Below, one piece after another: positions 7,562-22,944 of a stretch of 64,000 nt of DNA. Made by a program: the position numbers and the translations under genes. The stretch is from NCBI GenBank assembly GCA_019322895.1, contig JAHWHZ010000001.1, positions 74,220 through 138,219 of the forward strand, read 5' to 3'. Source of the DNA: Candidatus Woesearchaeota archaeon. GTDB lineage: Archaea; Nanobdellota; Nanobdellia; Woesearchaeales; ARS49. The notes under the pieces were generated by a model. The model was not told the DNA's origin, did no database searches, and saw only the letters and a program-made list of their open reading frames with translations. Each line of letters starts with the position of its first letter. Position 1 is the stretch's first letter.

Positions 7562-7663
7562 TCCCTCGGGGGTTAGGAGCGTAAGCCTTGAGTGATTCTT
7601 CACAAAGGATTCAGGTTAGCCCGTTCCCTTCGGGGTATCCCGGTTCAAATCCGGGCGGTGGCG
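7525..7663 (+). tRNA. tRNA-like gene, class II (long variable arm), probably intron-containing; anticodon unresolved
   Basis: Canonical T-arm CCCGG-TTCAAAT-CCGGG (7639-7655), 3' acceptor CGGTGGC plus discriminator G (7656-7663), variable-arm hairpin CCC-TTCG-GGG (7626-7635). A perfectly complementary 5' acceptor GCCACCG lies at 7525-7531, followed by a class-II-like D-arm (GCA-taacctggtat-TGC). About 50 extra nt between the D-arm and variable arm imply intron(s). A tyrosine integrase starts 45 nt downstream. Confidence 0.45.
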
Positions 7664-7707
7664 TTTAACTTTTTGGGACAAGAAATAGGCAATATTTATA
7701 TAGTAGT

Positions 7708-8955
7708 TTGTCTTTTATAGACGGTATGAAAAGAAAAATTGACATTCATGAGTATGATAAAAAATTAAAAGTTGCGATTTCTAATTTGGAAAAATCTAAG
7801 ATTAGTAAAATAAATAAAAGTGAAATTAAGAAGTATGCTGATTTTTTGTTTATGGATAATATTGGCAAGGCGAGAATTCTGAAATATGTTTCTACTTTGA
7901 AAATAGTTGCCAAGGCAATTGATAAGGATTTTAAGAAAATAACAGAAGAGGATTTGAAAAGGTTCTTGATTAAGATTCATAATAATCCTAATTTAAGTGT
8001 TTGGACTAAGGTTGATTATAATGTTTCTGTTAAGAAATTCTATAAGTGGCTTGAAGGGGATATCAAAAATAATGTTTGTCCTAAAAAAGTTAGTTGGATC
8101 AAGACAAGTATTAAGAAAAAAGACAAGCCAAAAGTTAAGAAAAGTGAATTGTTAAGAGAGGAAGATATTCAGTTGCTTTTGAAAAACGCGGATAATCCTA
8201 GAGATAAGGCTTTGATTTCTTTAGTTTGGGATACTGGTGCAAGGATTGGTGAGATTGGCGGAATGACTATTAAGCATGTTAGTTTTGAAGATAATGCTAC
8301 TTATGTTGATTTGGTTGGCAAGACAGGAAGCAGGACTTGTTTGGCTATTGAATCTACTCCTTATTTAGTTCGTTGGCTTGAGGCTCATCCTGACAGGGAA
8401 AATTCCAGTAGTCCTTTATGGTTGGATAGGAGTAATAAGTCTATGACTTATGCTGCTTTGGCTAAGGTTATTCGCAGGGCTTTTGAAAAGTCTAAGTTAA
8501 AGAAAAGGTTTAATCCTCATTTGTTTAGGCATTCTCGTGCTACTTGGTGTGCTGAGAATGGTTGGAGCAGTTATGAGATGTGCAAGCATTTTGGCTGGGA
8601 ATTAGACAGTGGTATGCCTGCGGTTTATATTAGCATGGTTGATAAGGATGTTCATAATAAGATGAAAGAGGCTTATGGATTAGATACAGAAAGAAAGCAG
8701 AAGATTGAAGAGAGGAAATTGCAGAAATGTCCTCGTTGTGAGGTTACTAATCCTAACAAAAGTAAATTCTGTTATAAATGTGGCATGGCTTTGGATACTA
8801 AGACTGCTTTGGATGTTGAGAATAAGAGAAAACTTGCTGATGATTTGATGCTTAAATTGTTAAGACAGCCTGAACTTAAAGAGGTTTTGGTTAAAAGATT
8901 AAAAGAACAGCAGTTGGATAAGCAGGTTAAGAAGATTATTGGTGGTAATGAATGA
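7708..8955 (+). CDS. Tyrosine recombinase / integrase
   Basis: Catalytic R (DTGARIGE), K (GKTGSR), HxxR (HLFRHSRATW), H and Y (AVYISM) signature; C-terminal CxxC..CxxC Zn ribbon. N-terminal region similar to the integrase at 49235-50428. Confidence 0.8.
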   Translation: MSFIDGMKRKIDIHEYDKKLKVAISNLEKSKISKINKSEIKKYADFLFMDNIGKARILKYVSTLKIVAKAIDKDFKKITEEDLKRFLIKIHNNPNLSVWTKVDYNVSVKKFYKWLEGDIKNNVCPKKVSWIKTSIKKKDKPKVKKSELLREEDIQLLLKNADNPRDKALISLVWDTGARIGEIGGMTIKHVSFEDNATYVDLVGKTGSRTCLAIESTPYLVRWLEAHPDRENSSSPLWLDRSNKSMTYAALAKVIRRAFEKSKLKKRFNPHLFRHSRATWCAENGWSSYEMCKHFGWELDSGMPAVYISMVDKDVHNKMKEAYGLDTERKQKIEERKLQKCPRCEVTNPNKSKFCYKCGMALDTKTALDVENKRKLADDLMLKLLRQPELKEVLVKRLKEQQLDKQVKKIIGGNE

Positions 8956-9190: not shown

Positions 9191-9931
9191 TTATTTTGCT
9201 GTTTTCCATAATTGGAGAAAGAATTTTCTGAATTGCTCTGAGCTTTCTTCGCTTTGGATTTTTATTGCTGTAGGGGTTTCTCCCCAAGTGACCATCACTA
9301 TGTTATCTCTGAAGATGGTAAGTCCTTGAGGAAAATTAAAGTCTGTGAATCTGAGTTTTGTTTCTTGAAATTCTTTTTTAGTATAGCTCTGCTCAAATAA
9401 CTGTCTTGTTTTTGAGTTTCCCAAAAGCCGAATATCTAATTTTTTCTCTTTTCTTTTTTTAATGAAGTTCTTATAGAATACGCGTATTATTGCATTTTTG
9501 TGTTCTTCTCCACGAACGGTGAATGCCAGATATAATTCTTTTGGCTTGGCATCTACAATCAGGTTTCTTAATAGATTAAATACTGCTTTAGTGCCTTCGA
9601 ACATCTCAACTGATTGCTTTTTCTTGGCGAATTTCTGCTTTTCTAAGAGTTCAGGAATCGCTTCAGAAATTCTTTCTCTTTTTTCGTCTAAGAAAGTTAA
9701 TATTGATTTAGGGTCTGCGGCCTGATAATGCCTTTTATTCTCAATTTTCACATAAGAAACTAGGCCTTTATCCTGAAGCCTATTAAGAATTTCATATATT
9801 TTGGAGCTGGGGATTTTTGTCTTTTCCAGGATTGCACCTATTGATGTTGAGCCAAGTTCTAGCAAAGCCAAGTACACTTTAATTTCTCGTTTGGTTAATC
9901 CTATGCTTTCAAATGCTTCTATGTCTATCAT
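9191..9931 (-). CDS. TrmB-family transcriptional regulator
   Basis: N-terminal wHTH LGLTKREIKVYLALLELGSTSIGAILEKTKIPSSKIYEILNRLQDKGLV typical of TrmB; 246 aa. Confidence 0.7.
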   Translation of the reverse strand: MIDIEAFESIGLTKREIKVYLALLELGSTSIGAILEKTKIPSSKIYEILNRLQDKGLVSYVKIENKRHYQAADPKSILTFLDEKRERISEAIPELLEKQKFAKKKQSVEMFEGTKAVFNLLRNLIVDAKPKELYLAFTVRGEEHKNAIIRVFYKNFIKKRKEKKLDIRLLGNSKTRQLFEQSYTKKEFQETKLRFTDFNFPQGLTIFRDNIVMVTWGETPTAIKIQSEESSEQFRKFFLQLWKTAK

Positions 9932-10022
9932 ATTAATAACTTATATTGTTTACTTTATAAAGCTTTTGTTTTATACTCCCTTTAGGGGTAGATAAAATAT
10001 AAAAAGAACTGACGTTACTACT

Positions 10023-10586
10023 ATGTTGGAACTAATAATTACAAAACAAATGAGGCATAAAAAAATGACAGAACAGAATAACAGAGAAAAACAGATTGAA
10101 GGTATGTATTTAAGCGACGCTTTAAAAAAATATCCTAAAACAATGGAAATAGCCGATGTACTTGAATCCATACGAGAGTTAATAATTTGTGACGTCCCTT
10201 ATGGAAAGAGAGCTCACTATAATTTTTACATTCGCCAAGTAGCACCATTTGAAACAGAAAATTTTAAAGGTGTTGTCTACAAAGCAGAAAATAACGGATG
10301 GAGTATGGCTGGAACCCCCCATCAGAATTATCAACTTAGTACAATGTATTTTAAAAAAGGAGAAAGGAAACTAACAGAACTCCCACCACTAGAATATCTC
10401 GCCCTGACCGAGGAGAAATTGAAATATGCTGAGTTAGGTGAACATTCCCTTCACATAAAAGTTCTACCTCAAGACAACTTAGAAATAAAATTAATTGGTG
10501 TGAAATCAGATCATAATGATAAACCACCTTATAATAGAACATTTTTAGCAGATCTAAAAAAAGAAGAACTGGTTAAACGAGACTGA
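10023..10586 (+). CDS. Hypothetical protein
   Basis: ORF only; no motif recognised. Confidence 0.3.
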   Translation: MLELIITKQMRHKKMTEQNNREKQIEGMYLSDALKKYPKTMEIADVLESIRELIICDVPYGKRAHYNFYIRQVAPFETENFKGVVYKAENNGWSMAGTPHQNYQLSTMYFKKGERKLTELPPLEYLALTEEKLKYAELGEHSLHIKVLPQDNLEIKLIGVKSDHNDKPPYNRTFLADLKKEELVKRD

Positions 10587-10645
10587 TTGTAGATTTGGAA
10601 TAATTTCCATCTCCAAATATCTATTTCCTCATGTTAAGTATATTT

Positions 10646-10710
10646 GGGTGATGGAGAAATCCCACCAATCCAAGCCTGTTTTGGCCTTCTTTACTCCACT
10701 CCCCTAAATC
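10646..10710. repeat. Hairpin repeat element, copy B (GGGTGATGGAGAAAT...TGTTTTGGCC...CTCCACTCCCC)
   Basis: Shares a purine-rich 5' arm, a TGTTTWGGCCTT core and a complementary pyrimidine-rich 3' arm with the copies at 11398-11456 and 12510-12580. The 15-mer GGGTGATGGAGAAAT also occurs at 9173-9187. Confidence 0.55.
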
Positions 10711-10798
10711 GAGGTATATGGTTTATTCTGCAGGAATTCTGGTATTTGAAGCAGTGGAGAAAATTGACTTTAGAGGTCTTTTTGGTGGCAATTAAAAA

Positions 10799-11341
10799 TT
10801 ATTTCTCTTTTAATTCATCTATTCCTTTTATGTATCCTAATACTGTGGGCATGATTTCGGATATGATTTTCCAGCTTTTGGATGATTTTGCTCTTATTTG
10901 TGCGAATCTTAATTGTTCTTTTACTGCAATGGATTCATCGCAGTTTTCATTTTTTAAATAATGATAGGCATGTCCTATTAATTCATGATCCATGCCGCTT
11001 TGGTTATAAATTTCATAGAATTCTTCGGGTGTGATTTTTGCATAGGCAGTCATTACTTTATCAATGATATTCTCAGGCATACCTAATGAACTAAGCCCAA
11101 CTCTTACTATTTCCGGAGAATCTGATGCAATATTTTCCCTATATACTTCAATTAATACTTTTCCTGTAGAATAATGTGTAAATCCATACCATCCTCCAAT
11201 ATCACTTGGAGATGCTCTTCTGGGAATTACATCAAGATAAACTTTATCTAGGTTTAACACAGAAGTATCCAACCCTAGCTTATCAGCAAGCAAGACAGCA
11301 TTCTTTTTCCAGCGTTGTAAATCTCTTATTGTAATAAGCAT
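10799..11341 (-). CDS. Hypothetical protein
   Basis: ORF only. Confidence 0.3.
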   Translation of the reverse strand: MLITIRDLQRWKKNAVLLADKLGLDTSVLNLDKVYLDVIPRRASPSDIGGWYGFTHYSTGKVLIEVYRENIASDSPEIVRVGLSSLGMPENIIDKVMTAYAKITPEEFYEIYNQSGMDHELIGHAYHYLKNENCDESIAVKEQLRFAQIRAKSSKSWKIISEIMPTVLGYIKGIDELKEK

Positions 11342-11397
11342 ATTATCTAATAAAAGACAAGTCTTATTTTAAAGATTTTTCTATTTTTTAATAGTTT

Positions 11398-11456
11398 AGG
11401 GGGTGGAGAAATTTCATCAAAAGGAGCTTGTTTAGGCCTTTTTCACTCCCCCCCTC
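11398..11456. repeat. Hairpin repeat element, copy C (GGGGGTGGAGAAAT...TGTTTAGGCCTTTTTCACTCCCCCCCTC)
   Basis: See copy B. About 57 nt upstream of the start of the minus-strand gene 10799-11341. Confidence 0.55.
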
Positions 11457-11556
11457 AAAATGGCAATAAACGCCTTAATACTCTTGAAATCAGGGCTTAG
11501 AAGAGTTGAGGGCCTCCTACTTTAGAGGGGTTTTTGGTGGGAATCAGAATTGCTAA

Positions 11557-12504
11557 TTACTTCTCTTCTTCTCTCACAATCATAATAGAAAAAAGCGATC
11601 CTAAGCAAGATTTAATTCTTCTTATGATACTACACAAATGATGTAAAATACAATCATCTTTATCGTTTGCTTCTAATGAAGAATATAGTTCTTTTGTTTT
11701 CTCTTGAATTTCGCTATGTAATTTGGAGCAATCTTCAATTTTTAATGCTTTTTCTGTTTCTTGTTTCAAGAATAAATTTTTGAAATTAGTAAAGGAATCG
11801 TTTGTTTCTTTGAATAGTTTAAGAGTTTTTTTATCAATTTTTTTCTGTTTTAAGTAATATTTACAAATACTATAATACTCATCACCTATATTTTCTAGTT
11901 CTTTAATGATATAAAAAAGAAAAGGAATTTGGTCTATATCTTCATAACCGACTTTAGTTAGTATTCTTTCACAAAAGTTTGCATTTCTATTTATTATGCT
12001 TTCTTTGGTCATCGCCATTTTGATTTCATTGATATTTTTGGTTTTTATACTCTCAAGACTATCTTTTGAAAATTCCGATAAACTAAAAAGCAACTTTTTT
12101 AGAATACTTTTAAATTGTGATTGATCTATCATGGAAATAGATTCTAAAACACAGAAGTTTTTCTTATTTTCCGTAATATCTAATCCGTTTAAATCTGATC
12201 CAACAACTTTATCAATTGCATTATAAATCTCTGCATTATTATATGCGAATTCTATATGGTCATAGCCCGCGCGGTATAATGCTGCAGTATAGTGCATTAT
12301 TGTAGGGCAAGAAATCTTATCAGAAACAGTGATTGTTTTAGATAGAATCTCTTTTCTTCCTCTGCCCCCAACGATTAGATAATGGCCTTCTTCAACTATT
12401 TGTATTTCGTCTCCTTTATGAAGTTTATTTTTGTTAATCCACTTTATTGGAAGTGTTATTGTTAATGAGGAGCTTCCGTGTTGTACAATTTTTCTTGTTG
12501 CCAT
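11557..12504 (-). CDS. AbrB/SpoVT swapped-hairpin domain fused to a PhoU-like domain (archaeal phosphate-uptake-regulator-like protein)
   Basis: N-terminal IVQHGSSSLTITLPIKWINKNKLHKGDEIQIVEEGHYLIV is AbrB/MazE-like; helical PhoU-like remainder. A paralog lies at 31122-32036. Confidence 0.55.
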   Translation of the reverse strand: MATRKIVQHGSSSLTITLPIKWINKNKLHKGDEIQIVEEGHYLIVGGRGRKEILSKTITVSDKISCPTIMHYTAALYRAGYDHIEFAYNNAEIYNAIDKVVGSDLNGLDITENKKNFCVLESISMIDQSQFKSILKKLLFSLSEFSKDSLESIKTKNINEIKMAMTKESIINRNANFCERILTKVGYEDIDQIPFLFYIIKELENIGDEYYSICKYYLKQKKIDKKTLKLFKETNDSFTNFKNLFLKQETEKALKIEDCSKLHSEIQEKTKELYSSLEANDKDDCILHHLCSIIRRIKSCLGSLFSIMIVREEEK

Positions 12505-12509
12505 AAAAA

Positions 12510-12580
12510 TAAGGAGAGGTTGTTTTGGTGAAACAAATGAACAAACTAAACCAGAGTTTAGAGGTCATTCCCTCTCCCTT
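12510..12580. repeat. Hairpin repeat element, diverged copy D (AAGGAGAGG...TGTTTTGG...CCCTCTCCCTT)
   Basis: Same architecture as B and C; overlaps the 5' leader of gene 11557-12504. Confidence 0.4.
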
Positions 12581-12915
12581 AGTACTATAAAACGCACGCA
12601 TATATAAATGTTTCTATCCAATAAACAAATAAATATAAAATACACATTTTCTAAAAGTTATGCATAATAAACTGCAAAAATACATATATTCATTGTACTT
12701 TATATTATTTAACAAGAACTGAAGGGACACAAGCTTCCTTGGTTCGGAGGTGATAAAAAATGAAAAAAGCACAAAAACAAAAAATGAGATGGGGTATGAA
12801 ATCTTCGGTAATAGATGGATACATATTCGATCGATTTGGAGTTAGTTTTAGACAAATGGGGGCAATAGCCTAAAAAGGGTAGCGTACTACATTACGCTAG
12901 GAGGAAATAAAAAAA

Positions 12916-14229
12916 ATGAAACAAAACGCAATTATTGGAGGGGGCAAAATTGAAGAGCCCAGAATAGCTTTGGGAAACACTATTGATGGAACTGGTAGAA
13001 GTTTGGATCTTAATGTTAACAAACCGCATAATATTGCAATTATAGGTCCTTCAGGATGCGGTAAAACAATGTTATTATCTACGATTTCTGAAGGTTTAAT
13101 TTTTAAGAAGAGTAATTGTCTAAAGAATTTTAATACTAGTATGCCTTTGATTTTATTGGATTTACTGGGAAATATGCATGGACTAAAGAAAACGGACAAA
13201 CAATGCGAATTAATTAAAGAACTAGATCAAAAATCTCTTGAAGATTTAGATTCTAATGTAACACTTAATTATATACCCTCATACATAAGTGATGACGAAA
13301 TGAGTCCTGAAGAGATATTAGGATTTAATCGATTATCAGTAGACTTTTCCAAGATAACTGAATCAGAAGTTTGTGAACTTTTAAAGATTTCTGTAGCTAG
13401 AGATACCAATATGGCGGCACTAGTTAAACGGGTAATGAAGCAGCATCCCAAGAATCCTGGAGAATTTTTCGATATGTTAAATATGTTGAAAGAGGATGCC
13501 TTGCTTCCAGATAATCTCGCTAATGCATTAGACAAGGTTCTTTTTAGAGCAGAAGAGTTAGTAAAGTATTCTATTTTTAGATGGAATAACAATAAGGATG
13601 TGATTAGTCAACTTAGAAATAGAAAAACTGCAATAATAAATTGTGAAAAGTCATTAATGGAGGCGAAAGAAGTAACTAATATGTGGATAAGGCTTTACTT
13701 AGGGAGATTAAAAACTGAGAGAAGAAAAGCAAATGAATCAGAAACACAAAAAAGATACTTTGGAACTGAAGTAGATTTTAAGGATAAATTGCCGGCTTTC
13801 TGGCTTGCTATTGATGAAGTTCATAGGCTTAATCATAGTACAAAAGTAGCATATAATGATTTTGTAAGAACTGCAAGGAATTGGAATTGTTCAACTATTG
13901 TTTCTACTCAATGTGTGGATGATATTGATAAAGAAACTAGGAAAAATCTAACAGTAATGTTTTTGGGTAGAATGAGTGAAAAAGAAGCTATGAAAGCTTT
14001 AAAGGATTTTCCAATCCCAATAAATCATAAGCGAGTTTTGAATAGAGTACAAGATTTGTTGCCTGGACAATTCTTGGTTTTAGATAAAATAAGCGGCGAA
14101 TTTTTTTATCTTAATACAAGAGAAAGAATCACTCAACACGTAGGCGCAACTGTTTCAACTGCTGATTTGATTGAGCTTTACAAGGATGCAAATGAAGCAA
14201 AAATGAAAGTGCCTGCTTTGGTCGCATAA
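12916..14229 (+). CDS. HerA/FtsK-superfamily P-loop ATPase (DUF87/AAA_10-like)
   Basis: Walker A AIIGPSGCGKT and Walker B FWLAIDEVHRL; RBS AGGAGG upstream; 437 aa. Confidence 0.55.
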   Translation: MKQNAIIGGGKIEEPRIALGNTIDGTGRSLDLNVNKPHNIAIIGPSGCGKTMLLSTISEGLIFKKSNCLKNFNTSMPLILLDLLGNMHGLKKTDKQCELIKELDQKSLEDLDSNVTLNYIPSYISDDEMSPEEILGFNRLSVDFSKITESEVCELLKISVARDTNMAALVKRVMKQHPKNPGEFFDMLNMLKEDALLPDNLANALDKVLFRAEELVKYSIFRWNNNKDVISQLRNRKTAIINCEKSLMEAKEVTNMWIRLYLGRLKTERRKANESETQKRYFGTEVDFKDKLPAFWLAIDEVHRLNHSTKVAYNDFVRTARNWNCSTIVSTQCVDDIDKETRKNLTVMFLGRMSEKEAMKALKDFPIPINHKRVLNRVQDLLPGQFLVLDKISGEFFYLNTRERITQHVGATVSTADLIELYKDANEAKMKVPALVA

Positions 14230-14352
14230 GGTGATGAAAATATTTTTTCCACCTTCTTTTTTATCAACAAACACACACAGTTTTATAAAAGATGTTAGCT
14301 TTTTAAGGAACTGTAAAGCCACATTTAAAAAAAACTGAATGAGGATTCAAAA

Positions 14353-15801
14353 ATGAAACTCCTAACCAAATCCAAATATCTAATTGGCTTGCAGTGCCCT
14401 AAATATCTTTGGATTGTTTTTAATGATTCTAAGCAGATTCCTAAGGCAGGGGTTCCTGATGAGTTTAAGTTTAAGGAAGGTGAGAAAGTAGGGGAGTTGG
14501 CTAAGAAGTTGTTTCCTGATGGGATTGATTTGCCTGCTGATGATTTTGTTAAGAATCTTGAGGAGTCTGAAAAGGCTTTGAAAGAGAGAAAGCCTTTGTT
14601 TGAGGCTGGTTTTAAGTTTGGGAATATTTTTTCTAGGGCAGATGTTATTGTTCCTGTTGGTGATGAGTGGGATATTGTTGAGGTTAAATCTGCTACTAAG
14701 GTTAAGGATATTAATTATCATGATGTTGCTTTTCAGAAGTATGTATATGAAAGTAAGGGTCTTAAGATTAGGAAGTGTTTTTTATTGCATTTGAATAGTA
14801 AATATATTAGAAAGGGAGAGTTAGATTTAAAGGGTTTATTTGTTAAGGAAGATATTACTTCTAAGGTTAGTTTGCATTTTTTAGGTATTAAGGGGAGGAT
14901 TGATTCTATGTTTAAAATTATTTCTTCTGAGAAAATGCCTGAAATGAAGGTTGGGGCGCATTGTAGTGATCCTTACAAATGTCCTGTTTGTCATTGTTGG
15001 GAAGAGTTGCCTGAGAATCATGTTTTTTGTTTGTATCGTGGCGGAAAGTTAAGTTGTAAATTATTTGAAGAAGGAATTGAAGCAATTGGAGATATTCCCG
15101 AAGATGTTAAATTAAATGATAAACAAGGAATACAAAGAGATTGTGCTCTTTCTGGAAAACCCCATATACACAAAGAAAGTATTAAACATTTCTTAAACAC
15201 ATTAAAATATCCGTTATATTATCTTGATTTTGAAACTTTTTCAACAGCGATTCCTATGTTTGACGGATTAAAGACTTATTCTCAAGTTCCTTTTCAGTTC
15301 AGTTTGCATGTTGTTGAGAAAGAAGGAAGTAAACCAAAACATTATGAGTTTCTTTATAATGGAAATGAAGATCCACGAGAGGATTTTATTTTGGCTTTGA
15401 AAAAGGTTTTAGGAGATAAGGGTTCTGTTGTTGTTTATAATCAAGTTTTTGAGATTAATAGATTAAAAGATTTAGGAGAACACTTTCCTAAATATAAGAA
15501 ATGGGTAGATTCTGTTTTATCTAGAATTGTTGATTTATTAGTTCCGTTCAGGAATTTTTCATATTATAATCCAAAACAAGAAGGTTCTGCCTCAATCAAG
15601 AAAGTTCTACCTGCGCTCTGCAGTAAAAGCTATAAAGGAATGGGTATTACAGATGGAGGAACCGCATCTGTAAAGTTCTTTAATATGGCTTATGGAGAAT
15701 GTGAAAATAAGGATAAAATCAGGCAGGACTTGTTAAAATATTGCGAACTAGATACTTTGGCAGAGGTTTGGATTGTTGAGGAATTGGGAAAGCTCATTTA
15801 A
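14353..15801 (+). CDS. Two-domain nuclease: N-terminal Cas4/RecB-like PD-(D/E)xK nuclease with Fe-S cysteines fused to a C-terminal DEDD/RNase-H-like exonuclease-type domain (DUF83 + DUF2779-like)
   Basis: N-terminal Cys (LQCPKYLW), a D..EVK block (DVIVPVGDEWDIVEVKSATK), QxxxY (FQKYVY) and a C-terminal Cys cluster CSDPYKCPVCHC match the Cas4 motifs. The second half has YYLDFETFS, an acidic DxE-type motif. Confidence 0.5.
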   Translation: MKLLTKSKYLIGLQCPKYLWIVFNDSKQIPKAGVPDEFKFKEGEKVGELAKKLFPDGIDLPADDFVKNLEESEKALKERKPLFEAGFKFGNIFSRADVIVPVGDEWDIVEVKSATKVKDINYHDVAFQKYVYESKGLKIRKCFLLHLNSKYIRKGELDLKGLFVKEDITSKVSLHFLGIKGRIDSMFKIISSEKMPEMKVGAHCSDPYKCPVCHCWEELPENHVFCLYRGGKLSCKLFEEGIEAIGDIPEDVKLNDKQGIQRDCALSGKPHIHKESIKHFLNTLKYPLYYLDFETFSTAIPMFDGLKTYSQVPFQFSLHVVEKEGSKPKHYEFLYNGNEDPREDFILALKKVLGDKGSVVVYNQVFEINRLKDLGEHFPKYKKWVDSVLSRIVDLLVPFRNFSYYNPKQEGSASIKKVLPALCSKSYKGMGITDGGTASVKFFNMAYGECENKDKIRQDLLKYCELDTLAEVWIVEELGKLI

Positions 15802-15844
15802 AAAAAGAAGTATTTATAAAAGAAATCAAATTAAATATGTTAAT

Positions 15845-16618
15845 ATGATTAGCGATAAATTAAAAGAAGAAATAAAAGAAGAGTTAATTAGGAAAATTAA
15901 GAATAAAATTGCGAATTATGATTTTTCTAAGAAATCAGGAAATCCATTTATAGATATTGTTTTTGGCAAATATTCTAATATCAAATCATTTATTCATGGA
16001 ACTGCAACTATGCTGGGCAGTTATTATGAAATACTTGCTAGAAAAATTGCACAAGAAAATTCCAATTTTATTGAAGCAAAAAAAATTGTGCTTATTGGCA
16101 AAATATCAAATTCGGAAAGTGCAGTTATTAAACATTTAGTTAAGGATTTAGAAGAAAAAAATATTGCTGCAGATCATGATGCCGAAATAAAATCAGTTTA
16201 TTCCGCAGGAGCTACAAATATTAGAGATACGCGAATAACTATCGACTTGTTTTTAAAAGATAAAAAAGGAAAAGAATATTTTATCGAAATGAAAGGCCCG
16301 GATCCTAATAAGAAAGAAGTTCGCGCAGCAAAAGAAGACTTATTAAATGTAATTGCTATGAAAAAAAGAGAAATTTCTATTAAATCTTTCGATAAAAAGG
16401 TTCGAGTTATTTTTGGAGTATATTATAATAATGAAGACGGGGACTATAATAATTGGAAAGTTTCTCCGATGTTCGAAAGAGGACAAGATTTATTAGTTCA
16501 AGAGGAATTTTGGGATCTTTTAGGTGGTAAAGGGACATATAAAGAATTATTGAATATTCTTGAGCAAGTAAAAGAAAAGGTATTCCCAATTATTGAAAAA
16601 ACAATAAATAAATTTTAG
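15845..16618 (+). CDS. Putative type II restriction endonuclease (PD-(D/E)xK); the longest ORF starts at 15773 but overlaps the upstream gene
   Basis: Convergent with and overlapping (4 nt) the DNA methyltransferase; candidate ID..EMK catalytic block (ITIDLF...EYFIEMKGP). Confidence 0.35.
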   Translation: MISDKLKEEIKEELIRKIKNKIANYDFSKKSGNPFIDIVFGKYSNIKSFIHGTATMLGSYYEILARKIAQENSNFIEAKKIVLIGKISNSESAVIKHLVKDLEEKNIAADHDAEIKSVYSAGATNIRDTRITIDLFLKDKKGKEYFIEMKGPDPNKKEVRAAKEDLLNVIAMKKREISIKSFDKKVRVIFGVYYNNEDGDYNNWKVSPMFERGQDLLVQEEFWDLLGGKGTYKELLNILEQVKEKVFPIIEKTINKF

Positions 16619-18222
16619 TTTTTTTTCTGCATATGAAATATTATTTCTGCGTAGGGTTGTCTGTCGCGTTCTGTTCGGTTTAGTACGGGTCTTTTGAATT
16701 TATTTACTATTTTTAATCCGCTTTTTTCGGCGATAATCGGATATAGATTAAATTTATCGTTTGCTACTATAAAAAAGTGTCCATCGTCTTTGACAAATTT
16801 GCTGATATTTGTTAAAACTTGACTGATTCCTTCGATATATTCTTTTCTGGCTTCTGCGCCGCGGCCTTTGTATAATGGTCCTATTTCTTGTTTGTCTCTT
16901 CGGTTTATTTTGAATAGTTCGTATGCATATGCATGTTGTTCGTGATAGTCTATTTGACCTACATACGGGGGAGACGTAAATATTCCTGCGATTTTGTTGT
17001 TTTTTAGGATTTTATATAGTGCTGGATTTTGATTTTTGACTTGTTCTAGTATGTTTATTGTTCTTGAATCGTCAGAAAGTACTGTTTGTTGTGTTTTTTT
17101 CTTTAATTTAGAAAAGTCATTTAGTCTTGTTAGTGTATCGTAGGTGTTTCTTCGCAAATGTTTAAGTATGCTGTTAATGGGGGTGCATATTTTTTTGTGT
17201 TTTCGGCAATAGTAAGGCCCTCTTTGTGGTTCTTTAAGTGTTGCTAGATCCGAATGTGTTGTTGCTCTGCATGATCTAGCAGTTCTACTCAATACTATTT
17301 TCATTATATTTCTTATTTGTTTATCATTAATCGTATTTATCAGCTTTAGGTAAAAATAAAGTTCTTGTTGAATTCTTTTTGAAAACCAGGTATTTAAGAA
17401 AGAGGACATTTTTTCTTGGCTGGCAAGATTAATTTTGTTTTTGGTGCCATTGTTTGTCAGGAATTTTTCATTTTTCTTCAGGAATTCTAAAAATCTTTCT
17501 TGCGCATATTTTTCTTCAGATATTTTTCCTTTAGATACTTTGTGTTTAAATTCTGGATTAGGAAAATGTTTCTGATTAAATTCGTATAATTTTTCTTTTA
17601 ATTGTAAATCATAATCGTCATCAAATGTTCTTTCACTGAATTGTGCAGTTCTTAGCAATGCTTCTTGCAATTTATTACTTAATCTTTTTATGTCATAATT
17701 ATCTAATTTAACTTTTGATAATAGACAGTTGAATTCAGAAATATCTATACCTATTGAATGCATTCCTAATTCAGATGCCTGAATTAATGTTGTCCCGCTC
17801 CCCATAAACGGATCTAGTATTATATCGCCTTTCTTGAAAAATATTTGTTTTTTAAATGTATTAATGTGATTATCTAAGAAGTATTCTACTAATTGAGGAA
17901 TAAATTTTCCTTTGTAAGGATGTAATCTATGAACATGTTTTGTTGTATCTGCTTCGCGCAAATGATCAAAGGATAACGCCCAGTTTAAATCATTTCCAAG
18001 ATATTTTTTCCAGGCATTTTGTTTTTTAATTACGATATCATCGTAATATCTTTTTAATTCATCTTTATTAACAATTATTTTTCTTTGATTATCTACATAT
18101 TTACGAATTTTAGCATATTGAACCAAGTAGGTTATATTTGAAGGGGTGACAGGTTTATTTAAATAATTGGTTGCCCAAGTAGAAGCCTCTTTTATTGAGA
18201 TACAATTATTGATTTTTATCAC
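16615..18222 (-). CDS. DNA methyltransferase (N6-adenine/N4-cytosine amino-MTase)
   Basis: SAM motif I DPFMGSGTT followed by ..LG..IGID..EF; catalytic motif IV TSPPY (IFTSPPYVGQIDY); 535 aa. Confidence 0.8.
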   Translation of the reverse strand: MIKINNCISIKEASTWATNYLNKPVTPSNITYLVQYAKIRKYVDNQRKIIVNKDELKRYYDDIVIKKQNAWKKYLGNDLNWALSFDHLREADTTKHVHRLHPYKGKFIPQLVEYFLDNHINTFKKQIFFKKGDIILDPFMGSGTTLIQASELGMHSIGIDISEFNCLLSKVKLDNYDIKRLSNKLQEALLRTAQFSERTFDDDYDLQLKEKLYEFNQKHFPNPEFKHKVSKGKISEEKYAQERFLEFLKKNEKFLTNNGTKNKINLASQEKMSSFLNTWFSKRIQQELYFYLKLINTINDKQIRNIMKIVLSRTARSCRATTHSDLATLKEPQRGPYYCRKHKKICTPINSILKHLRRNTYDTLTRLNDFSKLKKKTQQTVLSDDSRTINILEQVKNQNPALYKILKNNKIAGIFTSPPYVGQIDYHEQHAYAYELFKINRRDKQEIGPLYKGRGAEARKEYIEGISQVLTNISKFVKDDGHFFIVANDKFNLYPIIAEKSGLKIVNKFKRPVLNRTERDRQPYAEIIFHMQKKN

Positions 18223-18482
18223 CCTCTCTTTAATTTATTATTTGTCTTTTGTTATTTATATATGTTACGTGTATATGTCCAGTGAAGCTTCTTTATATAT
18301 TTTTCTACTTCAAAATCGGAAAATTTACGACATTTTAGTGACATTTTCCGAGACAGAATCTCTTATTTTATCTTCCTCCAGCCATTCGTTTATTAGGAAT
18401 ATCCATTCTGGGAGCTTTTTTCTGAGCTCTTGTTCGTATTCATTGGCTTGGATGATTTTTGTTCACCTTAAGGAATTTAAAG

Positions 18483-18515
18483 GCTTCATGGCCATGGAAG
18501 GAGCCATGAAGCTTT
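18483..18515. promoter_or_regulatory. Hairpin/palindrome GCTTCATGGC-N13-GCCATGAAGC containing CCATGGCCATGG, in the divergent intergenic region
   Basis: 10-bp perfect inverted repeat between the MTase start (18222, minus) and the 19008 operon (plus). Confidence 0.3.
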
Positions 18516-19007
18516 TGCATGGAGGGCAAAAATACACTGTGGTTCGTGGGTTTTCCTTGATTAAGCATGGTAATTCTATTGTTTTCCAAGTTTATATATT
18601 CTAGCGACTTTTCGTGGACACAAAGTTTTTTCATAATTTTTCTTATTGTTTTCCTGATTTAAATATTATTGCGGACTTTTGTAGGACTTTTTTCATTATA
18701 CTGTTTTTCAACAATATTAAACTAAGTCTAAAACTTATCCGATTTCGGACAAAAATATCCATTTTCAGACAAAAAATTAGAAGATGATTAAGTATATAAA
18801 TTCCCTACTCAGTTTTTTTCCGGTAAAAGTGAATAGGGGGTTTATAAAGAGCGCACATCAGCCACTGGACAAATGACCGAAAAATATAAATACGACCTTA
18901 TTAATCTAACATCATGTGTATTAATGATGACTGATTTAATATAATAATAACATTTTTATATCAGTTCTGTTTTATTGCACAAATCTAGGTTTGGAGGGAG
19001 ATGAAAA

Positions 19008-19565
19008 ATGTATGAAACCATAAAAGATAAAATAAAAGAAGTTATTGAAATTACCCAAAAATGTCCTGAAAACTTACAGGAAAAATGTTTTGAATTACTG
19101 ATGTTACCTTTGCTTCAGGAAAAAGTGACTCCGTCAACTGTACAAGAATCAGAAGAAAAAGAGTCTGTTGTAACAGAAGTTGATTTTAAAATACCCTTAG
19201 ATGTACGAGCATTCTTAGAACAGTATGGTGTTTCTGAAGAAAAATTGCAAAAATTATTCCTAATGCAAGGAGAAGAAGTCAAAGAAAAGTTCAATATTAC
19301 TACTTCCAAAAAGGCAAGAGCTCAAATCCAGCTTGCATTATTAAGTGCTTTGCAAAATGCTTTGAAAGGCGAAAAATTTCAATTTTCAATTGCAACTGTT
19401 AAGCAACAATGCGAAGATCATAAAGCGTACGACTTGCCCAATTTCAGAGGAATTTTCAAAAAGAACCAAGGACTGTTCAAGAATCTTGATGATGATGAAA
19501 ATGTCGAATTATCACCCTCTGGAAAAGAAAAACTAGCTGAGACAATTCTTGAAGTAGCAAAATGA
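19008..19565 (+). CDS. Hypothetical protein, first gene of a three-gene module
   Basis: RBS GGAGGG upstream; 4-nt overlap (ATGA) with the next gene. Confidence 0.3.
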   Translation: MYETIKDKIKEVIEITQKCPENLQEKCFELLMLPLLQEKVTPSTVQESEEKESVVTEVDFKIPLDVRAFLEQYGVSEEKLQKLFLMQGEEVKEKFNITTSKKARAQIQLALLSALQNALKGEKFQFSIATVKQQCEDHKAYDLPNFRGIFKKNQGLFKNLDDDENVELSPSGKEKLAETILEVAK

Positions 19566-20395
19566 AGGACAACATTCTTAGAGGATTAGAAGGAATAGAA
19601 TCTTCTCTCAGAAGTCTTAAAGGGCTTGTAAATTTAAACAAGTCTGAATTTGTGTCCAAAGTTTCTATCAAGGGACTTTCAAAAGAAATCGCTGTAAAGT
19701 GGTTTGAAAGTATTGAAAAACCGCTAAGCAGTTCTTTTTCTTTGCAAGAAGACACAATGAAAAAATATCAGGACAATTTCGATAAACTTTTAAAGCTCTC
19801 AATACGCAAAAATGCAAGAAAAAGCACATACTTAAAGCAAATAGACTTATTATTAAGCAATTTCAAGAATGACCTGATTCAGCCAGTATTGAAATATACG
19901 CCAGTGACATCAAAACTCAATAACTGGTCAGGCATATTTAAAGATGTAACAGAAGGAGAAAAAGAATATTTAAATGAAGCAATAAAATGTGCTGATTTAA
20001 ATTTATTTAGAGCATCCATTGTCTTGGGATGGTGTGCAGTTATTGATAGAATTCATAGAGTTATCGAAATGAGAGGATTTAAGGAATTTAGCGAAAAAAG
20101 TGAGGAAATGCGCAAGAAGAAGGATGGTCGTTATAAAAGGTGTAATAAAGCATTTTCAATAAATTCTTTAAACGAATTACGTGTCCAAGTATTTGATAAA
20201 GACCTTTTGTGGATCCTAGAATACATGAACTTAATCGATCCTAACCAACATGACCGGCTTTCATTATGCTTTACTATGAGAAATAACTGCGCGCACCCTG
20301 GAGATGCAGGAATATCGCCAGAAAATCTCCTTTCTTTTTATTCAGACGTAGACAGCATAATATTTAAAAATCCTAAGTTTTTACTCAGTAAATAA
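19562..20395 (+). CDS. HEPN-domain protein (Rx4HxxD type), putative RNase toxin / Abi-like
   Basis: C-terminal MRNNCAHPGD fits the HEPN R-x4-H motif; predicted all-helical. Confidence 0.4.
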   Translation: MKDNILRGLEGIESSLRSLKGLVNLNKSEFVSKVSIKGLSKEIAVKWFESIEKPLSSSFSLQEDTMKKYQDNFDKLLKLSIRKNARKSTYLKQIDLLLSNFKNDLIQPVLKYTPVTSKLNNWSGIFKDVTEGEKEYLNEAIKCADLNLFRASIVLGWCAVIDRIHRVIEMRGFKEFSEKSEEMRKKKDGRYKRCNKAFSINSLNELRVQVFDKDLLWILEYMNLIDPNQHDRLSLCFTMRNNCAHPGDAGISPENLLSFYSDVDSIIFKNPKFLLSK

Positions 20396-20434
20396 TACCC
20401 TACATTGCTAGTTTAAAAGAAAGAGAAAAACTAA

Positions 20435-21022
20435 GTGAGTTTATTTAGAATGAACGAAGAACAAATAACACAAGAAGAATACATACTAGAAGTATTAAAA
20501 GATGACTTAAATACGGGAAGATACCCTATTTTACAAAAATCGCCATCACTTATTACAAATGCAAATCTTCTGTCTGAAGATGAAAATCAAAAGAGATTAA
20601 AGTTAATACAAAATAACGGCGCCTTTGGCAGAATCTTTGAGATTCGTAATTTTGTTGCTTTTTATAAATCACAGATTAAACAGGAAGAGTTTCTAGAACT
20701 ATTTTGGTGTCCTAAGGGTAATGAAACAGACCAAGATGGAATAGATTTAATGAGCGACAATACTAGAAATATTGCTAAGTTAATTGCTTTTCTCAAAAAA
20801 GAATATTTAGGAACTGATCCAAAAATAATACAACAAATCAAGAGTTTTTTTAATGAAGAAATAAGGAAAGATAAAGAAATCCGACTCTTCTTATTTGAAA
20901 CATCCCGTAGTAAATTAATAATAGATGGGAACCATCGGGCGGGAGCAATAGTAAAGTCAATATCACAGGAAAATATAGAAAATGTATTTCCCATTACTGT
21001 GTATGTCGCAAAAATATCCTAA
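20435..21022 (+). CDS. ParB/Srx-like nuclease-domain protein
   Basis: IIDGNHRAGAI matches the ParB N-terminal DGxHR motif; 195 aa. Confidence 0.4.
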   Translation: MSLFRMNEEQITQEEYILEVLKDDLNTGRYPILQKSPSLITNANLLSEDENQKRLKLIQNNGAFGRIFEIRNFVAFYKSQIKQEEFLELFWCPKGNETDQDGIDLMSDNTRNIAKLIAFLKKEYLGTDPKIIQQIKSFFNEEIRKDKEIRLFLFETSRSKLIIDGNHRAGAIVKSISQENIENVFPITVYVAKIS

Positions 21023-21120
21023 ATCCCGTCCCTTTCGGTTTAACGTGGGGCGGTGGCGTCTATATTTCTACCTGAAAACTGCTTAAAAAAAATCCCGAAT
21101 CTTTATAAACAATCTCAGAT

Positions 21121-22944
21121 TTGTGTATATCGATGAAGACACGTAATGCTGGAGATATTGTTGGCAGGGGAGGACGCTATAAATTAGTGGAAGAGATCGG
21201 AGCAGGTGCTGTTCTAGAGGTCTGGTCTGCAAGACAATGTCTGGATATGGGCAACAGGACTGTTGCACTTAAATTTCTAAAAGATTCAAGCAATATAGCA
21301 CATCTTCAGAGCGAGATAGATTTGCTGCAGAAAGTCGGCCAGCACCCGCACATTGTTAATTTGTATTATAGAGAGCTTGAAAATGACCCTTTTATTGAAG
21401 TTGATTTATGCCACGCCACTCTTAATGAAATATTAGGGCCTGATGGACTGCCTTTTGACGATCCTGTTAAAAAACAAGAGGTTGCAGTAAAAAAGATAAG
21501 GAACCTGGCAAATGCTGTTCAGTTTGTGCACAACAAGACTTCTGACAGCATCATTGACTTGGACCCGACAAATATAATGCTTCAGCAGTATGATTCTGAC
21601 AAGCGCGAAACTGCAGTCCAGCTTTTGGAAGGCACAGTAAAGATCTGTGATTTAAACGCGAAAATCAATCAAGTTTCCGTAAGAGATTCTCTTGTAGCTT
21701 CATTATCCACATCTATCAGTACAGGCGAGAAAGGCAGCACGCATGTCTTTGCAAAGCCTTATTTTATTGCTCCTGAATTATTGAATTCAGATGCAGAGCC
21801 TACTTTTGCTGCAGATGTCTATTCTCTTGGAAAGATTCTTTCAGTGATGCTGACTGGAAGAAAAGAGCTCAATCCAAGATACATGCCCTCTAAGATGGGC
21901 ATTGCGCCTGCTTATGATGAGGTTCTTGCAACTGCTGTTGAGCCAAAAATTGAGGAAAGGTTCCAGGATATTGGCCAGTTTTTAGAGGCTGTTGAAGCAG
22001 CTGAAAAACGGCCTGTCAGGGTGACTGTCAGTAGCTGGGAATGGGTTAAAAGCGGTTTTAGCTATAAAAAAGCACAGGCCAAAAAAGAAAAAGAAGCAGA
22101 AGCAAAGTGGCGCGAGGACGTGCAGGGCATTGTTGATACAGCCAGAAGAAAGATTGAGGATGCAGAACGCGATAAAAGATGGGAGGCAGATAGAGACAGA
22201 AGTATAAAAAGAGAACAAGAAAAGAAGAAAAAACAACAAGAAGCAGAAGAAGCAAGAAGAAAAGAAGTGGAGGCTCTTGAAATACTACTCAAAGAGCGGC
22301 CAGATGAATCCCGCGCTGCGTGGCTCCGTGATGATTCAGATATCGTAATTTATCAGGTTAATAAAGTTCATGATTCCACGTATACACCTACAATATTGAA
22401 TGTGCCGAGCATTGAAAGGCGTGAGTTTCACATCCAGTGGATGGCATGGGTCAATGGAGGAAAACATCTTGCATATTGTGCAAACTTTAGACAAAAAAAT
22501 AATCCCTATTCTGAATATTCTGCAATTGGTTTGATAAACACAGACACTTTTGAAATAATCGAGGAATCATTGGAATACTTATTAAAAACACACAATATTC
22601 ATGCAGATGCAGAAGAACCAATAATTTATGCTGCAAATACAGAAGGAAAATTGATTAAATTTGACCTGTTTAATCCAGAAGAAGAAGGGCGGGCAAAATT
22701 CGTCCCTATACGCGGCTTAAGGGTTTGCGAACAAACAAACAGCCGCTGCGGCCGTTTTACATTGCAGAAAAATATAAAGATAGAATCCCATGCGTATAAT
22801 GAACCCCGTAGCCAATACGCTGCAATAGTAAGCAAAGAAAAACCAGATATTGGTTTTGTGATTGGCAAGCCTTCTAAAATAGCGGTCTGGTATGACCCTG
22901 AGAAAAAAACAGAAGAATCTACAGAGCCAGAATCAGCTGTTTAA
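21121..22944 (+). CDS. Eukaryotic-type Ser/Thr protein kinase with a K/E-rich linker and a large C-terminal domain of unknown function
   Basis: Gly-loop IGAGAVLEV, VALKFLK, catalytic-loop-like IIDLDPTNIML and ADVYSLGKIL. Confidence 0.7.
   Translation: MCISMKTRNAGDIVGRGGRYKLVEEIGAGAVLEVWSARQCLDMGNRTVALKFLKDSSNIAHLQSEIDLLQKVGQHPHIVNLYYRELENDPFIEVDLCHATLNEILGPDGLPFDDPVKKQEVAVKKIRNLANAVQFVHNKTSDSIIDLDPTNIMLQQYDSDKRETAVQLLEGTVKICDLNAKINQVSVRDSLVASLSTSISTGEKGSTHVFAKPYFIAPELLNSDAEPTFAADVYSLGKILSVMLTGRKELNPRYMPSKMGIAPAYDEVLATAVEPKIEERFQDIGQFLEAVEAAEKRPVRVTVSSWEWVKSGFSYKKAQAKKEKEAEAKWREDVQGIVDTARRKIEDAERDKRWEADRDRSIKREQEKKKKQQEAEEARRKEVEALEILLKERPDESRAAWLRDDSDIVIYQVNKVHDSTYTPTILNVPSIERREFHIQWMAWVNGGKHLAYCANFRQKNNPYSEYSAIGLINTDTFEIIEESLEYLLKTHNIHADAEEPIIYAANTEGKLIKFDLFNPEEEGRAKFVPIRGLRVCEQTNSRCGRFTLQKNIKIESHAYNEPRSQYAAIVSKEKPDIGFVIGKPSKIAVWYDPEKKTEESTEPESAV

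What the first reader, a model, noticed from the sequence alone, without database searches (positions are those of the whole stretch)
19008..21022. Three-gene module of an unknown protein, a HEPN protein and a ParB-like nuclease at the distal end of the island
Two tightly coupled genes (ATGA overlap) are followed by a third, 40 nt downstream. The middle protein ends in MRNNCAHPGD, a textbook HEPN Rx4H RNase motif. The third has the ParB/Srx DGNHR motif seen in ParB-like nucleases of defence and TA systems. The first protein has no recognisable domain and is a candidate antitoxin or sensor. The module sits between an R-M system and the attR repeat. A divergent promoter region with a strong palindrome (18483-18515) precedes it.
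Basis: partly seen in the sequence, partly recalled or inferred. Interest (0 to 1): 0.7.

Follow-up and report, generated by a model that had tools for sequence, protein, structure and literature searches.

The report
Two-gene HEPN module plus unrelated neighbour
The supposed three-gene unit is really a widely travelling two-gene cassette, a predicted winged-helix (DNA-binding-type fold) protein coupled to a predicted HEPN RNA-cutting enzyme that is probably a toxin-antitoxin or anti-virus module, followed by a rare gene that is not part of it.

Summary
All three ORFs, the ATGA overlap, the Rx4H motif and the DGNHR motif are present as described. The three-gene grouping fails.

**A-B pair.** Of 63 genome loci and 3 viral contigs encoding a relative of the middle protein (B), 61 have a relative of the first protein (A) directly upstream on the same strand. 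The gap is -8 to +11 nt in intact pairs. The 5 loci without A hold truncated or decayed B copies. None of the 66 loci has a relative of the third protein (C). A and B distance matrices correlate (r = 0.89), and no third gene is conserved.

**B.** It belongs to the uncharacterised Pfam family PF27235 (AF_1680). Its C-terminal half is very probably a HEPN domain:
- R240 and H245 are invariant.
- Members weakly match the HEPN part of PD-T7-3/DARNA, an abortive-infection tRNA nuclease.

**A.** It has no sequence family. It is modelled as a helical hairpin, a disordered linker and a winged-helix domain.

**C.** It belongs to a very rare family (19 representatives in 1.8 billion proteins) found in varied contexts. 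ParB/Srx membership rests on the motif only.

**Verdict.** A-B is a new variant of HEPN toxin-antitoxin/abortive-infection modules. Function is inferred, not shown.

The parts
19008..19565 (+). Gene A (185 aa), the conserved upstream partner of B. Predicted N-terminal helical hairpin (residues 2-36), disordered variable linker (39-56) and a confident alpha/beta C-terminal domain (61-185) containing a winged helix.
19562..20395 (+). Gene B (277 aa), Pfam PF27235 'AF_1680'. N-terminal helical domain (1-111) plus a C-terminal HEPN-like domain (about 118-277). Its start overlaps A's stop (ATGA).
   Evidence: More than 141 homologs, all carrying PF27235; family name. AF2 model pLDDT 93.9, all-alpha.
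19913..20392 (+). Predicted HEPN RNase domain of B (residues about 118-277): helix 1 131-145, helix 2 149-171, insert 173-221, helix 3 227-244, helix 4 253-268.
20279..20296 (+). Codons for R240-N-N-C-A-H245, the Rx4H motif (predicted catalytic site).
   Evidence: R240 and H245 invariant in 38 of 38 and 55 of 55. The motif sits at the end of helix 227-244 and the start of the loop.
20450..21022 (+). Gene C (190 aa from the annotated ATG; the mechanical GTG start is at 20435). A rare stand-alone gene with a conserved DGNHR motif. Not part of the A-B module.
   Evidence: 3 homologs in 5.8 billion clusters and 19 representatives in 1.84 billion proteins. Absent from all 66 A-B loci. Varied contexts elsewhere.
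20924..20938 (+). Codons for DGNHR in C.
   Evidence: In the 18-member alignment G160 and R163 are invariant and D159 and H162 are at 90% or more; the third residue (N161) varies.
18479..18516 (.). Strong hairpin/palindrome (14-nt arms, 10-nt spacer) in the 785-nt gap between the methylase gene and gene A. Context only; no demonstrated link to A-B.
   Evidence: -21.4 kcal/mol, z = -3.8; terminator-like on the minus strand.
15773..18222 (.). Neighbouring type II R-M pair (TdeIII-family endonuclease on the plus strand, N6/N4 methylase on the minus strand). Context.
   Evidence: Pfam RE_TdeIII 6e-40 and N6_N4_Mtase 4.8e-18.
21036..21067 (+). Degenerate copy of the 3' end of the tRNA gene at 7524-7664: a likely decayed distal att site marking the island end.
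   Evidence: Repeat D7, 75% over 32 nt. Shared 12-nt core GGGCGGTGGCGT. GC step at about 21 kb. Intron-containing tRNA found by ARAGORN with intron search. Integrase at 7708-8955.

Best explanation
Genes A and B form a self-contained, horizontally mobile two-gene cassette. Gene C is an unrelated neighbour.

B is the effector. Its C-terminal domain is a HEPN-type, metal-independent RNase with R240 and H245 as the active site. It is distantly related to the HEPN domain of the abortive-infection tRNA nuclease DARNA (PD-T7-3).

A is made first from the same transcript (overlapping stop/start). It is B's cognate partner, probably holding B inactive through protein-protein contact. A's winged-helix domain would bind nucleic acid, either for autoregulation or for sensing an invader. 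When A is lost, degraded or diverted, for example on virus infection or loss of the island, B would cleave cellular RNA and arrest growth. That is toxin-antitoxin / abortive-infection behaviour that also stabilises the island.

Shown here: the strict A-B linkage, their co-evolution, the motif conservation, the predicted folds, and the lack of any link to C. Inferred: RNase activity, toxicity, neutralisation by A, nucleic-acid binding by A, and the trigger.
For: **Linkage**
- A relative of A lies immediately upstream on the same strand in 58 of 63 genome loci. These span more than 15 bacterial phyla plus archaea.
- The same holds in 3 of 3 viral contigs.
- Gaps are -8 to +11 nt in nearly all intact pairs; the commonest is the 4-nt overlap.
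- The 5 loci without A hold truncated or decayed B copies.
- No other gene cluster recurs in more than 7 loci.
- A and B pairwise distances correlate: r = 0.895, Mantel p = 0.001, 55 pairs.

**Mobility**
- Flanking genes differ from locus to locus. They include DNA methylases, integrases, ResIII, GmrSD, HNH, zeta toxin and a T4SS pilin.
- In the window the pair sits in a low-GC island bounded by an integrase and a tRNA.
- Decayed copies exist.

**HEPN assignment for B**
- R240 and H245 are invariant.
[quoted passage not shown] This is as described for HEPN domains (PMC3710099).
- phrog_27609 matches at 4.8e-10.
- PD-T7-3 is matched by 7 of 38 members, over profile positions 13-121, which include its R117x4H122 region.
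- There are sub-threshold hits to HEPN_RiboL-PSP, PaREP1 and PDB 'Dandelion-hepn'.

**A**
- Winged-helix fold in the C-terminal domain.

**Gene order**
- A 5' partner followed by a 3' HEPN gene is the arrangement reported for antitoxin-toxin dyads (PMC3710099).
Against: - No experiment exists on this family, and no literature was found for PF27235 / AF_1680.
- All matches to recognised HEPN families are sub-threshold or weak.
- The residue after R240 is Cys in 36 of 55 copies, rather than the usual N/D/H.
- Both proteins are larger than classical type II TA components.
- Upstream regions of A show no general excess of inverted repeats across 55 loci (Wilcoxon p = 0.84). Operator-type autoregulation is therefore unsupported.
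- A could activate B rather than inhibit it.
- The pair is absent from sequenced plasmids and cultured phages and from PADLOC 2023 as a system.
Confidence: 0.6

Rival explanations
1. A-B is a sensor-effector defence pair rather than a toxin-antitoxin. A's winged helix recognises an invader-specific nucleic acid or protein and then switches B's HEPN RNase on. A would supply in trans what DARNA's C-terminal ssDNA-binding domain supplies in cis. B alone would be inactive and non-toxic.
For: - B's HEPN domain is closest, among characterised systems, to DARNA/PD-T7-3. That protein is auto-inhibited and activated by ssDNA plus phage SSB.
- A has a nucleic-acid-binding type of fold.
- No excess of operator-like palindromes lies upstream of A.
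- Both proteins are larger than typical TA components.
- The pair occurs next to R-M and other defence genes in some loci.
Against: - The same linkage and coupling data fit an inhibitory partner equally well.
- The 5' position of the partner is the classical antitoxin arrangement.
- There is no evidence on what A binds.
- Defence-gene neighbours occur in only a minority of loci.
Confidence: 0.25
2. One reading: A, B and C form one three-gene defence/TA system combining a HEPN RNase with a ParB-like nuclease.
For: - The genes are co-directional and closely spaced in this window (39-54 nt between B and C).
- C has a conserved DGNHR motif.
- C relatives sit in or near R-M operons in 2 other loci.
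Against: - 0 of 63 genome loci and 0 of 3 viral loci with A-B carry a C relative.
- None of the C-family contexts examined outside this organism contains A or B.
- The C family is about two orders of magnitude rarer than B's.
- ParB/Srx membership of C is untested at fold level and weak at sequence level.
Confidence: 0.03
3. A-B has a non-conflict role, for example a transcription factor (A) paired with an RNA-processing or ligand-binding HEPN-like protein (B) that is not toxic.
For: - Some HEPN domains are non-catalytic binding domains (PMC3710099).
- Many A-B loci have ordinary metabolic neighbours.
- There is no direct evidence of toxicity.
Against: - The Rx4H motif is invariant. Non-catalytic HEPNs typically lose it.
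- The distribution is sporadic and crosses domains of life: 63 of about 185,000 species representatives, with gene-tree co-transfer.
- The pair occurs in islands and viral contigs, and decayed copies exist. These are the marks of accessory selfish or defence genes.
Confidence: 0.1

Closest known systems
DARNA (PD-T7-3), single-protein abortive-infection tRNA anticodon nuclease of E. coli (bioRxiv 10.64898/2026.02.22.705581; Vassallo et al. 2022, PMC9519451)
   Same: - A HEPN domain with an Rx4H motif.
- B-family members match the PD-T7-3 PADLOC model over its HEPN part, profile positions 13-121.
- An all-helical protein associated with a nucleic-acid-binding module.
   Different: - DARNA is one 456-aa protein with the HEPN domain N-terminal and a Pds5-like ssDNA-binding C-terminal domain.
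- B is 277 aa with the HEPN domain C-terminal and an unrelated N-terminal helical domain.
- B has an obligatory separate winged-helix partner.
- The sequence similarity is weak (best E = 5e-5; the window protein itself does not hit).
HEPN-MNT (HepT/MntA) toxin-antitoxin modules
   Same: A two-gene dyad with the partner gene 5' and the HEPN gene 3'. The HEPN protein with Rx4H is the predicted RNase toxin (PMC3710099).
   Different: The partner here is not a minimal nucleotidyltransferase. It has no NTase hit and a winged-helix fold. Neutralisation by AMPylation is therefore not expected. B also carries an extra N-terminal domain.
AbiE (AbiEi/AbiEii) type IV toxin-antitoxin/Abi system (PMC3985639, listed; properties from my own knowledge)
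   Same: A bicistronic operon in which the upstream protein carries a winged helix and is the antitoxin/regulator.
   Different: The AbiEii toxin is a nucleotidyltransferase, not a HEPN protein. No sequence similarity between A and AbiEi was detected.
AbiT (AbiTi/AbiTii) of Lactococcus
   Same: A two-gene Abi system. 5 of 40 A-family members weakly match the PADLOC AbiTi model (best E = 7e-4). AbiTii relatives are fused to HEPN domains in other bacteria.
   Different: The match is sub-threshold and absent for the window protein. Lactococcal AbiTii lacks a HEPN domain, and AbiTi is described as endoribonuclease-like. This is a lead only.
DndB / DGQHR-domain and DUF262 (GmrSD_N) proteins of the ParB/Srx superfamily (for gene C)
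   Same: A conserved D-G-x-H/Q-R motif preceded by a hydrophobic strand-like stretch and followed by a helix-like stretch. 2 of 18 C-family members hit Pfam DndB at E = 0.015. hhalign places DGNHR on DGQQR of DUF262.
   Different: - No hit reaches any curated threshold, and the hhalign probability is 5.8% over 24 columns.
- The motif lies only 30 residues from the C-terminus of a 190-aa protein.
- The fold is untested.
- DndB-type proteins are regulators or NTP-binders, not nucleases.

Membership tests
HEPN superfamily (protein B) | Rx4-6H motif, conserved across the family | tested here: met
   R240 and H245 invariant in 38 of 38 and 55 of 55. It is the only R....H in the protein.
HEPN superfamily (protein B) | Four-helix core with the motif at the end of helix 3 / start of the loop to helix 4, and an insert between helices 2 and 3 (PMC3710099) | tested here: met
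   AF2 model pLDDT 93.9: H131-145, H149-171, insert 173-221, H227-244 (R240 in the helix end, H245 first loop residue), H253-268. This is a predicted structure, not a solved one.
HEPN superfamily (protein B) | Polar residue (N/D/H) immediately after the conserved R | tested here: inconclusive
   N in the window protein and 18 of 55 copies; C in 36 of 55; S in 1.
HEPN superfamily (protein B) | Significant sequence or fold match to a recognised HEPN family | tested here: inconclusive
HEPN superfamily (protein B) | Metal-independent endoribonuclease activity | not testable with these tools
   Needs an in vitro cleavage assay.
DARNA / PD-T7-3 family (protein B) | Single protein of about 450 aa: N-terminal HEPN plus C-terminal ssDNA-binding helical domain | tested here: not met
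   B is 277 aa. Matches cover only profile positions 6-121 of 432, and the HEPN domain is C-terminal in B. The architecture is described.
HEPN-MNT toxin-antitoxin | Partner gene encodes a minimal nucleotidyltransferase | tested here: not met
   A has no NTase hit in Pfam, for the window protein or for 40 family members. Its model shows a winged helix.
Type II-like toxin-antitoxin dyad (A-B) | Two co-directional, translationally coupled genes conserved as a unit, with the partner upstream of the toxin | tested here: met
   61 of 66 loci. Gaps of -8 to +11 nt in nearly all intact pairs. r = 0.895 between A and B distances.
Type II-like toxin-antitoxin dyad (A-B) | Upstream protein has a DNA-binding domain and autoregulates through operator repeats | tested here: inconclusive
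   Winged-helix fold predicted. No general excess of inverted repeats upstream of A (p = 0.84).
Type II-like toxin-antitoxin dyad (A-B) | Toxicity of B and neutralisation by A | not testable with these tools
   Needs expression assays.
   C relatives in 0 of 66 A-B loci. No A or B beside any C-family gene examined outside this organism.
ParB/Srx superfamily (protein C) | Conserved DGxHR-type motif after a beta-strand | tested here: met
   In 18 members G160 and R163 are invariant and D159 and H162 are at 90% or more; the third residue varies. A hydrophobic stretch precedes the motif. The strand itself is inferred, not modelled.
ParB/Srx superfamily (protein C) | Profile match to ParBc, DndB, DUF262 or sulfiredoxin families | tested here: not met
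   No Pfam hit for C. DndB in 2 of 18 members at E = 0.015, far below the curated cut-off. No ParB/Srx chain in PDB profile searches. hhalign to DUF262 gives probability 5.8%.
ParB/Srx superfamily (protein C) | ParB/Srx alpha/beta fold | not tested

The most novel reading that the evidence does not exclude
The A-B pair is a previously undescribed anti-virus system found in both archaea (including DPANN) and bacteria. In it a separate winged-helix protein senses an infection-specific nucleic acid and releases or activates a DARNA-like HEPN tRNA nuclease. This would be a 'split' version of single-chain HEPN abortive-infection proteins. PF27235/AF_1680 would then be its effector family.
Probability: 0.3. 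Interest if true: 0.6.

Novelty: new variant of a known kind. Interest (0 to 1): 0.45.

Why it matters
HEPN RNases are among the most common effectors of toxin-antitoxin, abortive-infection and CRISPR-associated immunity. How each is kept off and switched on is the open question.

This work gives a Pfam family with no literature found (PF27235/AF_1680) a predicted catalytic domain. It identifies an obligate, co-evolving winged-helix partner that no database describes. It shows that the pair moves between more than 15 bacterial phyla, several archaeal lineages and viral contigs. That makes a compact, directly testable two-gene candidate, including one from a cultured bacterium (Propionivibrio soli SG131, locus L042).

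It also prevents a false three-gene system from entering catalogues. Separately, it flags a very rare DGNHR protein that in one metagenomic locus (two near-identical assemblies, L067/L068) is inserted between hsdS and hsdM of a type I R-M operon.

Tried and rejected
- **Direct family scans.** Pfam, NCBIfam, PADLOC and PHROGs scans of the three window proteins gave nothing except a PHROG of unknown function for B.
- **PDB profile searches.** A gave none. C gave only chance-level hits.
- **Literature.** Searches for PF27235, AF_1680 and a 'Dandelion' HEPN defence system found nothing relevant.
- **Operator test.** The best inverted repeat in the 160 nt upstream of A in 55 loci, compared with mononucleotide shuffles of each region, showed no enrichment (p = 0.84).
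- **hhalign of the C family.** Against four DUF262 N-domains taken from the fetched loci it aligned the motifs, but at 5.8% probability.
- **Sequenced replicons.** tblastn of B against sequenced plasmids and cultured phages found no match.
- **More C-family loci.** The metagenome scan returned only an already known contig.
- **tRNA at the island's proximal end.** Rfam did not call one. ARAGORN with intron search did.
- **Considered and rejected.** HEPN-MNT membership (no nucleotidyltransferase), DARNA family membership (different architecture) and the three-gene module (C unlinked).
Full report
**What is in the window.** The three ORFs exist as described: A 19008-19565 (185 aa), B 19562-20395 (277 aa) and C 20435-21022 (195 aa from a GTG). 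A's stop and B's start overlap as ATGA at 19562-19565. Public annotation starts C at ATG 20450 (190 aa), and an alignment of its closest relatives begins at that annotated Met, so the B-C gap is 39 or 54 nt. B carries MRNNCAHPGD at residues 239-248, and C carries DGNHR at nt 20924-20938. The source is a Candidatus Woesearchaeota (DPANN archaeon) assembly, and all three products are annotated 'hypothetical protein'.

**Surroundings.**
- The genes lie at the end of a low-GC stretch, 0.30-0.34 against about 0.39-0.43 outside, running from about 7.7 to 21 kb.
- That stretch begins with a tyrosine-recombinase integrase (7708-8955).
- It contains a TdeIII-family restriction enzyme (15773-16618) and a convergent N6/N4 DNA methylase (16615-18222).
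- ARAGORN with intron search finds an intron-containing tRNA at 7524-7664, just before the integrase.
- A degenerate copy of that tRNA's 3' end lies at 21036-21067, right after C: 75% over 32 nt, with a 12-nt identical core.
- The 'island with a distal att repeat' picture is therefore reasonable, although the repeat is weak.
- It lies about 490 nt upstream of A, inside a 785-nt gap, and nothing ties it to the module.

**The linkage test.**
- B has more than 141 homologs, all carrying Pfam PF27235.
- A scan of one genome per prokaryotic species returned 63 loci. They come from Bathyarchaeota, Nanoarchaeia, Acidobacteriota, Planctomycetota, Verrucomicrobiota, Bacteroidota, Chloroflexota, Actinomycetota, Bacillota, Patescibacteria, several proteobacterial classes and others.
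- tblastn and all-against-all clustering of the ORFs show a relative of A directly upstream of B, on the same strand, in 58 of the 63.
- The gap is -8 to +11 nt in nearly all intact pairs, and the commonest arrangement is the same 4-nt overlap.
- The five loci without A hold truncated or decayed B copies. One is fused in frame to a helicase-like fragment that I read by eye as type I HsdR.
- Three IMG/VR viral contigs also carry the pair, as do three further metagenomic or genomic contexts, including Nitrosopumilus sp. SW.
- No other gene family recurs in more than 7 loci.
- A relative of C occurs in none of the loci.
- Pairwise distances of A and of B across 55 pairs correlate at r = 0.895 (Mantel p = 0.001), so the two genes travel and diverge together.

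**Protein B.**
- Direct scans of the window protein against Pfam (local copy), NCBIfam and PADLOC are empty.
- The precomputed family is PF27235, named AF_1680. I found no literature on it.
- The AlphaFold model built on 38 homologs is confident (pLDDT 93.9) and all-helical. It has an N-terminal domain (1-111) and a C-terminal domain (about 118-277).
- R240 and H245 are invariant in 38 of 38 and 55 of 55 sequences, and this is the only R....H in the protein.
- In the model R240 is at the end of helix 227-244 and H245 opens the loop to helix 253-268. A helical insert (173-221) separates the first hairpin (131-171) from helix 227-244.

**Sequence evidence for HEPN.** It converges, but each item is weak.
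- phrog_27609 matches at 4.8e-10 over residues 131-268.
- The PADLOC PD-T7-3 model is matched by 7 of 38 family members (best 5.4e-5). Residues 124-241 align to profile positions 13-121 of 432.
- HEPN_RiboL-PSP (best 0.0015) and PaREP1 appear sub-threshold.
- The best PDB profile hit is 'Dandelion-hepn' 9wx2, with both motif regions aligned (E = 0.16).
- PD-T7-3 is now called DARNA. It has an N-terminal HEPN domain (residues 1-159, R117x4H122) that cleaves tRNA anticodon loops in an abortive-infection response. It is activated by ssDNA through a C-terminal domain (bioRxiv 10.64898/2026.02.22.705581).
- The residue after R240 is N in the archaeal-type sequences but C in most bacterial ones.
- I put the HEPN assignment at about 0.85. 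B is not a DARNA family member, because its architecture differs.

**Protein A.**
- There is no family hit in any library and no PDB relative by sequence.
- The model (pLDDT 87.7) shows a helical hairpin (2-36), a disordered and length-variable linker (39-56), and a confident alpha/beta domain (61-185).
- A therefore has a predicted nucleic-acid-binding fold plus a separate N-terminal element that could contact B.
- Five of 40 family members weakly match PADLOC AbiTi (best 7e-4). That is a lead only.

**Protein C.**
- The family is extremely rare: 3 homologs in the 5.8-billion-cluster index and 19 representatives among 1.84 billion proteins.
- In 18 members G160 and R163 are invariant and D159 and H162 nearly so; the motif's third residue varies.
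- Contexts differ from locus to locus:
  - between hsdS and hsdM of a type I R-M operon, with 4-nt overlaps (L067/L068);
  - near an HsdS gene (L077);
  - beside an IS110 transposase;
  - inside a glycosyltransferase cluster;
  - next to enolase.
- Support for a ParB/Srx fold is limited to the motif, two sub-threshold DndB hits and a 24-column hhalign match to DUF262 at 5.8% probability.

**How it most likely works.**
- The data show an obligate, translationally coupled, co-evolving pair that moves horizontally. It appears in islands and viral contigs and decays in some genomes.
- The downstream gene encodes a HEPN domain with an intact catalytic motif, and the upstream gene a winged-helix protein.
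- The best reading (0.6) is a toxin-antitoxin/abortive-infection cassette. A, made first, restrains B. Loss or diversion of A frees the RNase.
- A close rival (0.25) is a sensor-effector pair in which A activates B, as DARNA's own C-terminal domain does in cis.
- The lack of enriched upstream palindromes slightly favours sensing over classical operator autoregulation, but it does not decide.
- A non-conflict role (0.1) is disfavoured by the invariant motif and the sporadic cross-domain distribution.
- The three-gene reading is at about 0.03.

**Novelty and score.** HEPN-based two-gene modules are a well-known kind. This one pairs an uncharacterised HEPN family with an undescribed winged-helix partner and is absent from PADLOC 2023 as a system. 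I rate it a new variant of a known kind, interest 0.45. Everything about activity is inference. The decisive experiments are simple and are listed above.

Noticed in passing
window 7524-7664 (+), with ORF 6944-7561: An intron-containing tRNA (43-nt intron, long variable arm) is found only by ARAGORN with intron search. Default ARAGORN and Rfam miss it. Its 5' end overlaps the 3' end of a LAGLIDADG homing-endonuclease-like ORF, and the island integrase follows directly.
   Followed up: partly
window 50508-50634 (-): A second tRNA gene with an intron (127 nt) is detected by Rfam but not by default ARAGORN.
   Followed up: no
window 9191-15801: The rest of the island carries a TrmB-like regulator, an AbrB/MazE-plus-PhoU protein (11557-12504), a HerA-like ATPase (12916-14229), a DUF2779/RNase H-like protein (14353-15801) and two proteins with no family hit (10023-10586, 10799-11341). 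These may be further defence or mobile-element functions.
   Followed up: no
window 18223-19007: An unusually long (785 nt) gap lies between the methylase gene and gene A. It holds a strong hairpin (18479-18516), other imperfect inverted repeats, and small ORFs that gene callers call inconsistently (50 aa on the plus strand, or 64 aa on the minus strand).
   Followed up: partly
L067 5063-5638 and L068 2299-2874: A relative of gene C (DGNHR protein) is inserted between hsdS and hsdM of a type I R-M operon, with 4-nt overlaps on both sides. Another relative lies near an HsdS gene (L077).
   Followed up: partly
L060 4954-6399; L048, L057, L061, L063: In L060 the C-terminal half of a B homolog is fused in frame to a helicase-like fragment that I read by eye as type I HsdR. 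Several other loci hold frameshifted or truncated A-B copies. This indicates decay of the cassette in some genomes.
   Followed up: partly
L072 1391-1897 and 1921-2553: A viral contig carries two tandem A-like genes upstream of B.
   Followed up: no
window 21121-22944: A 607-aa protein with a eukaryotic-type protein kinase domain (Pfam Pkinase in the public annotation) starts right after the island boundary.
   Followed up: no
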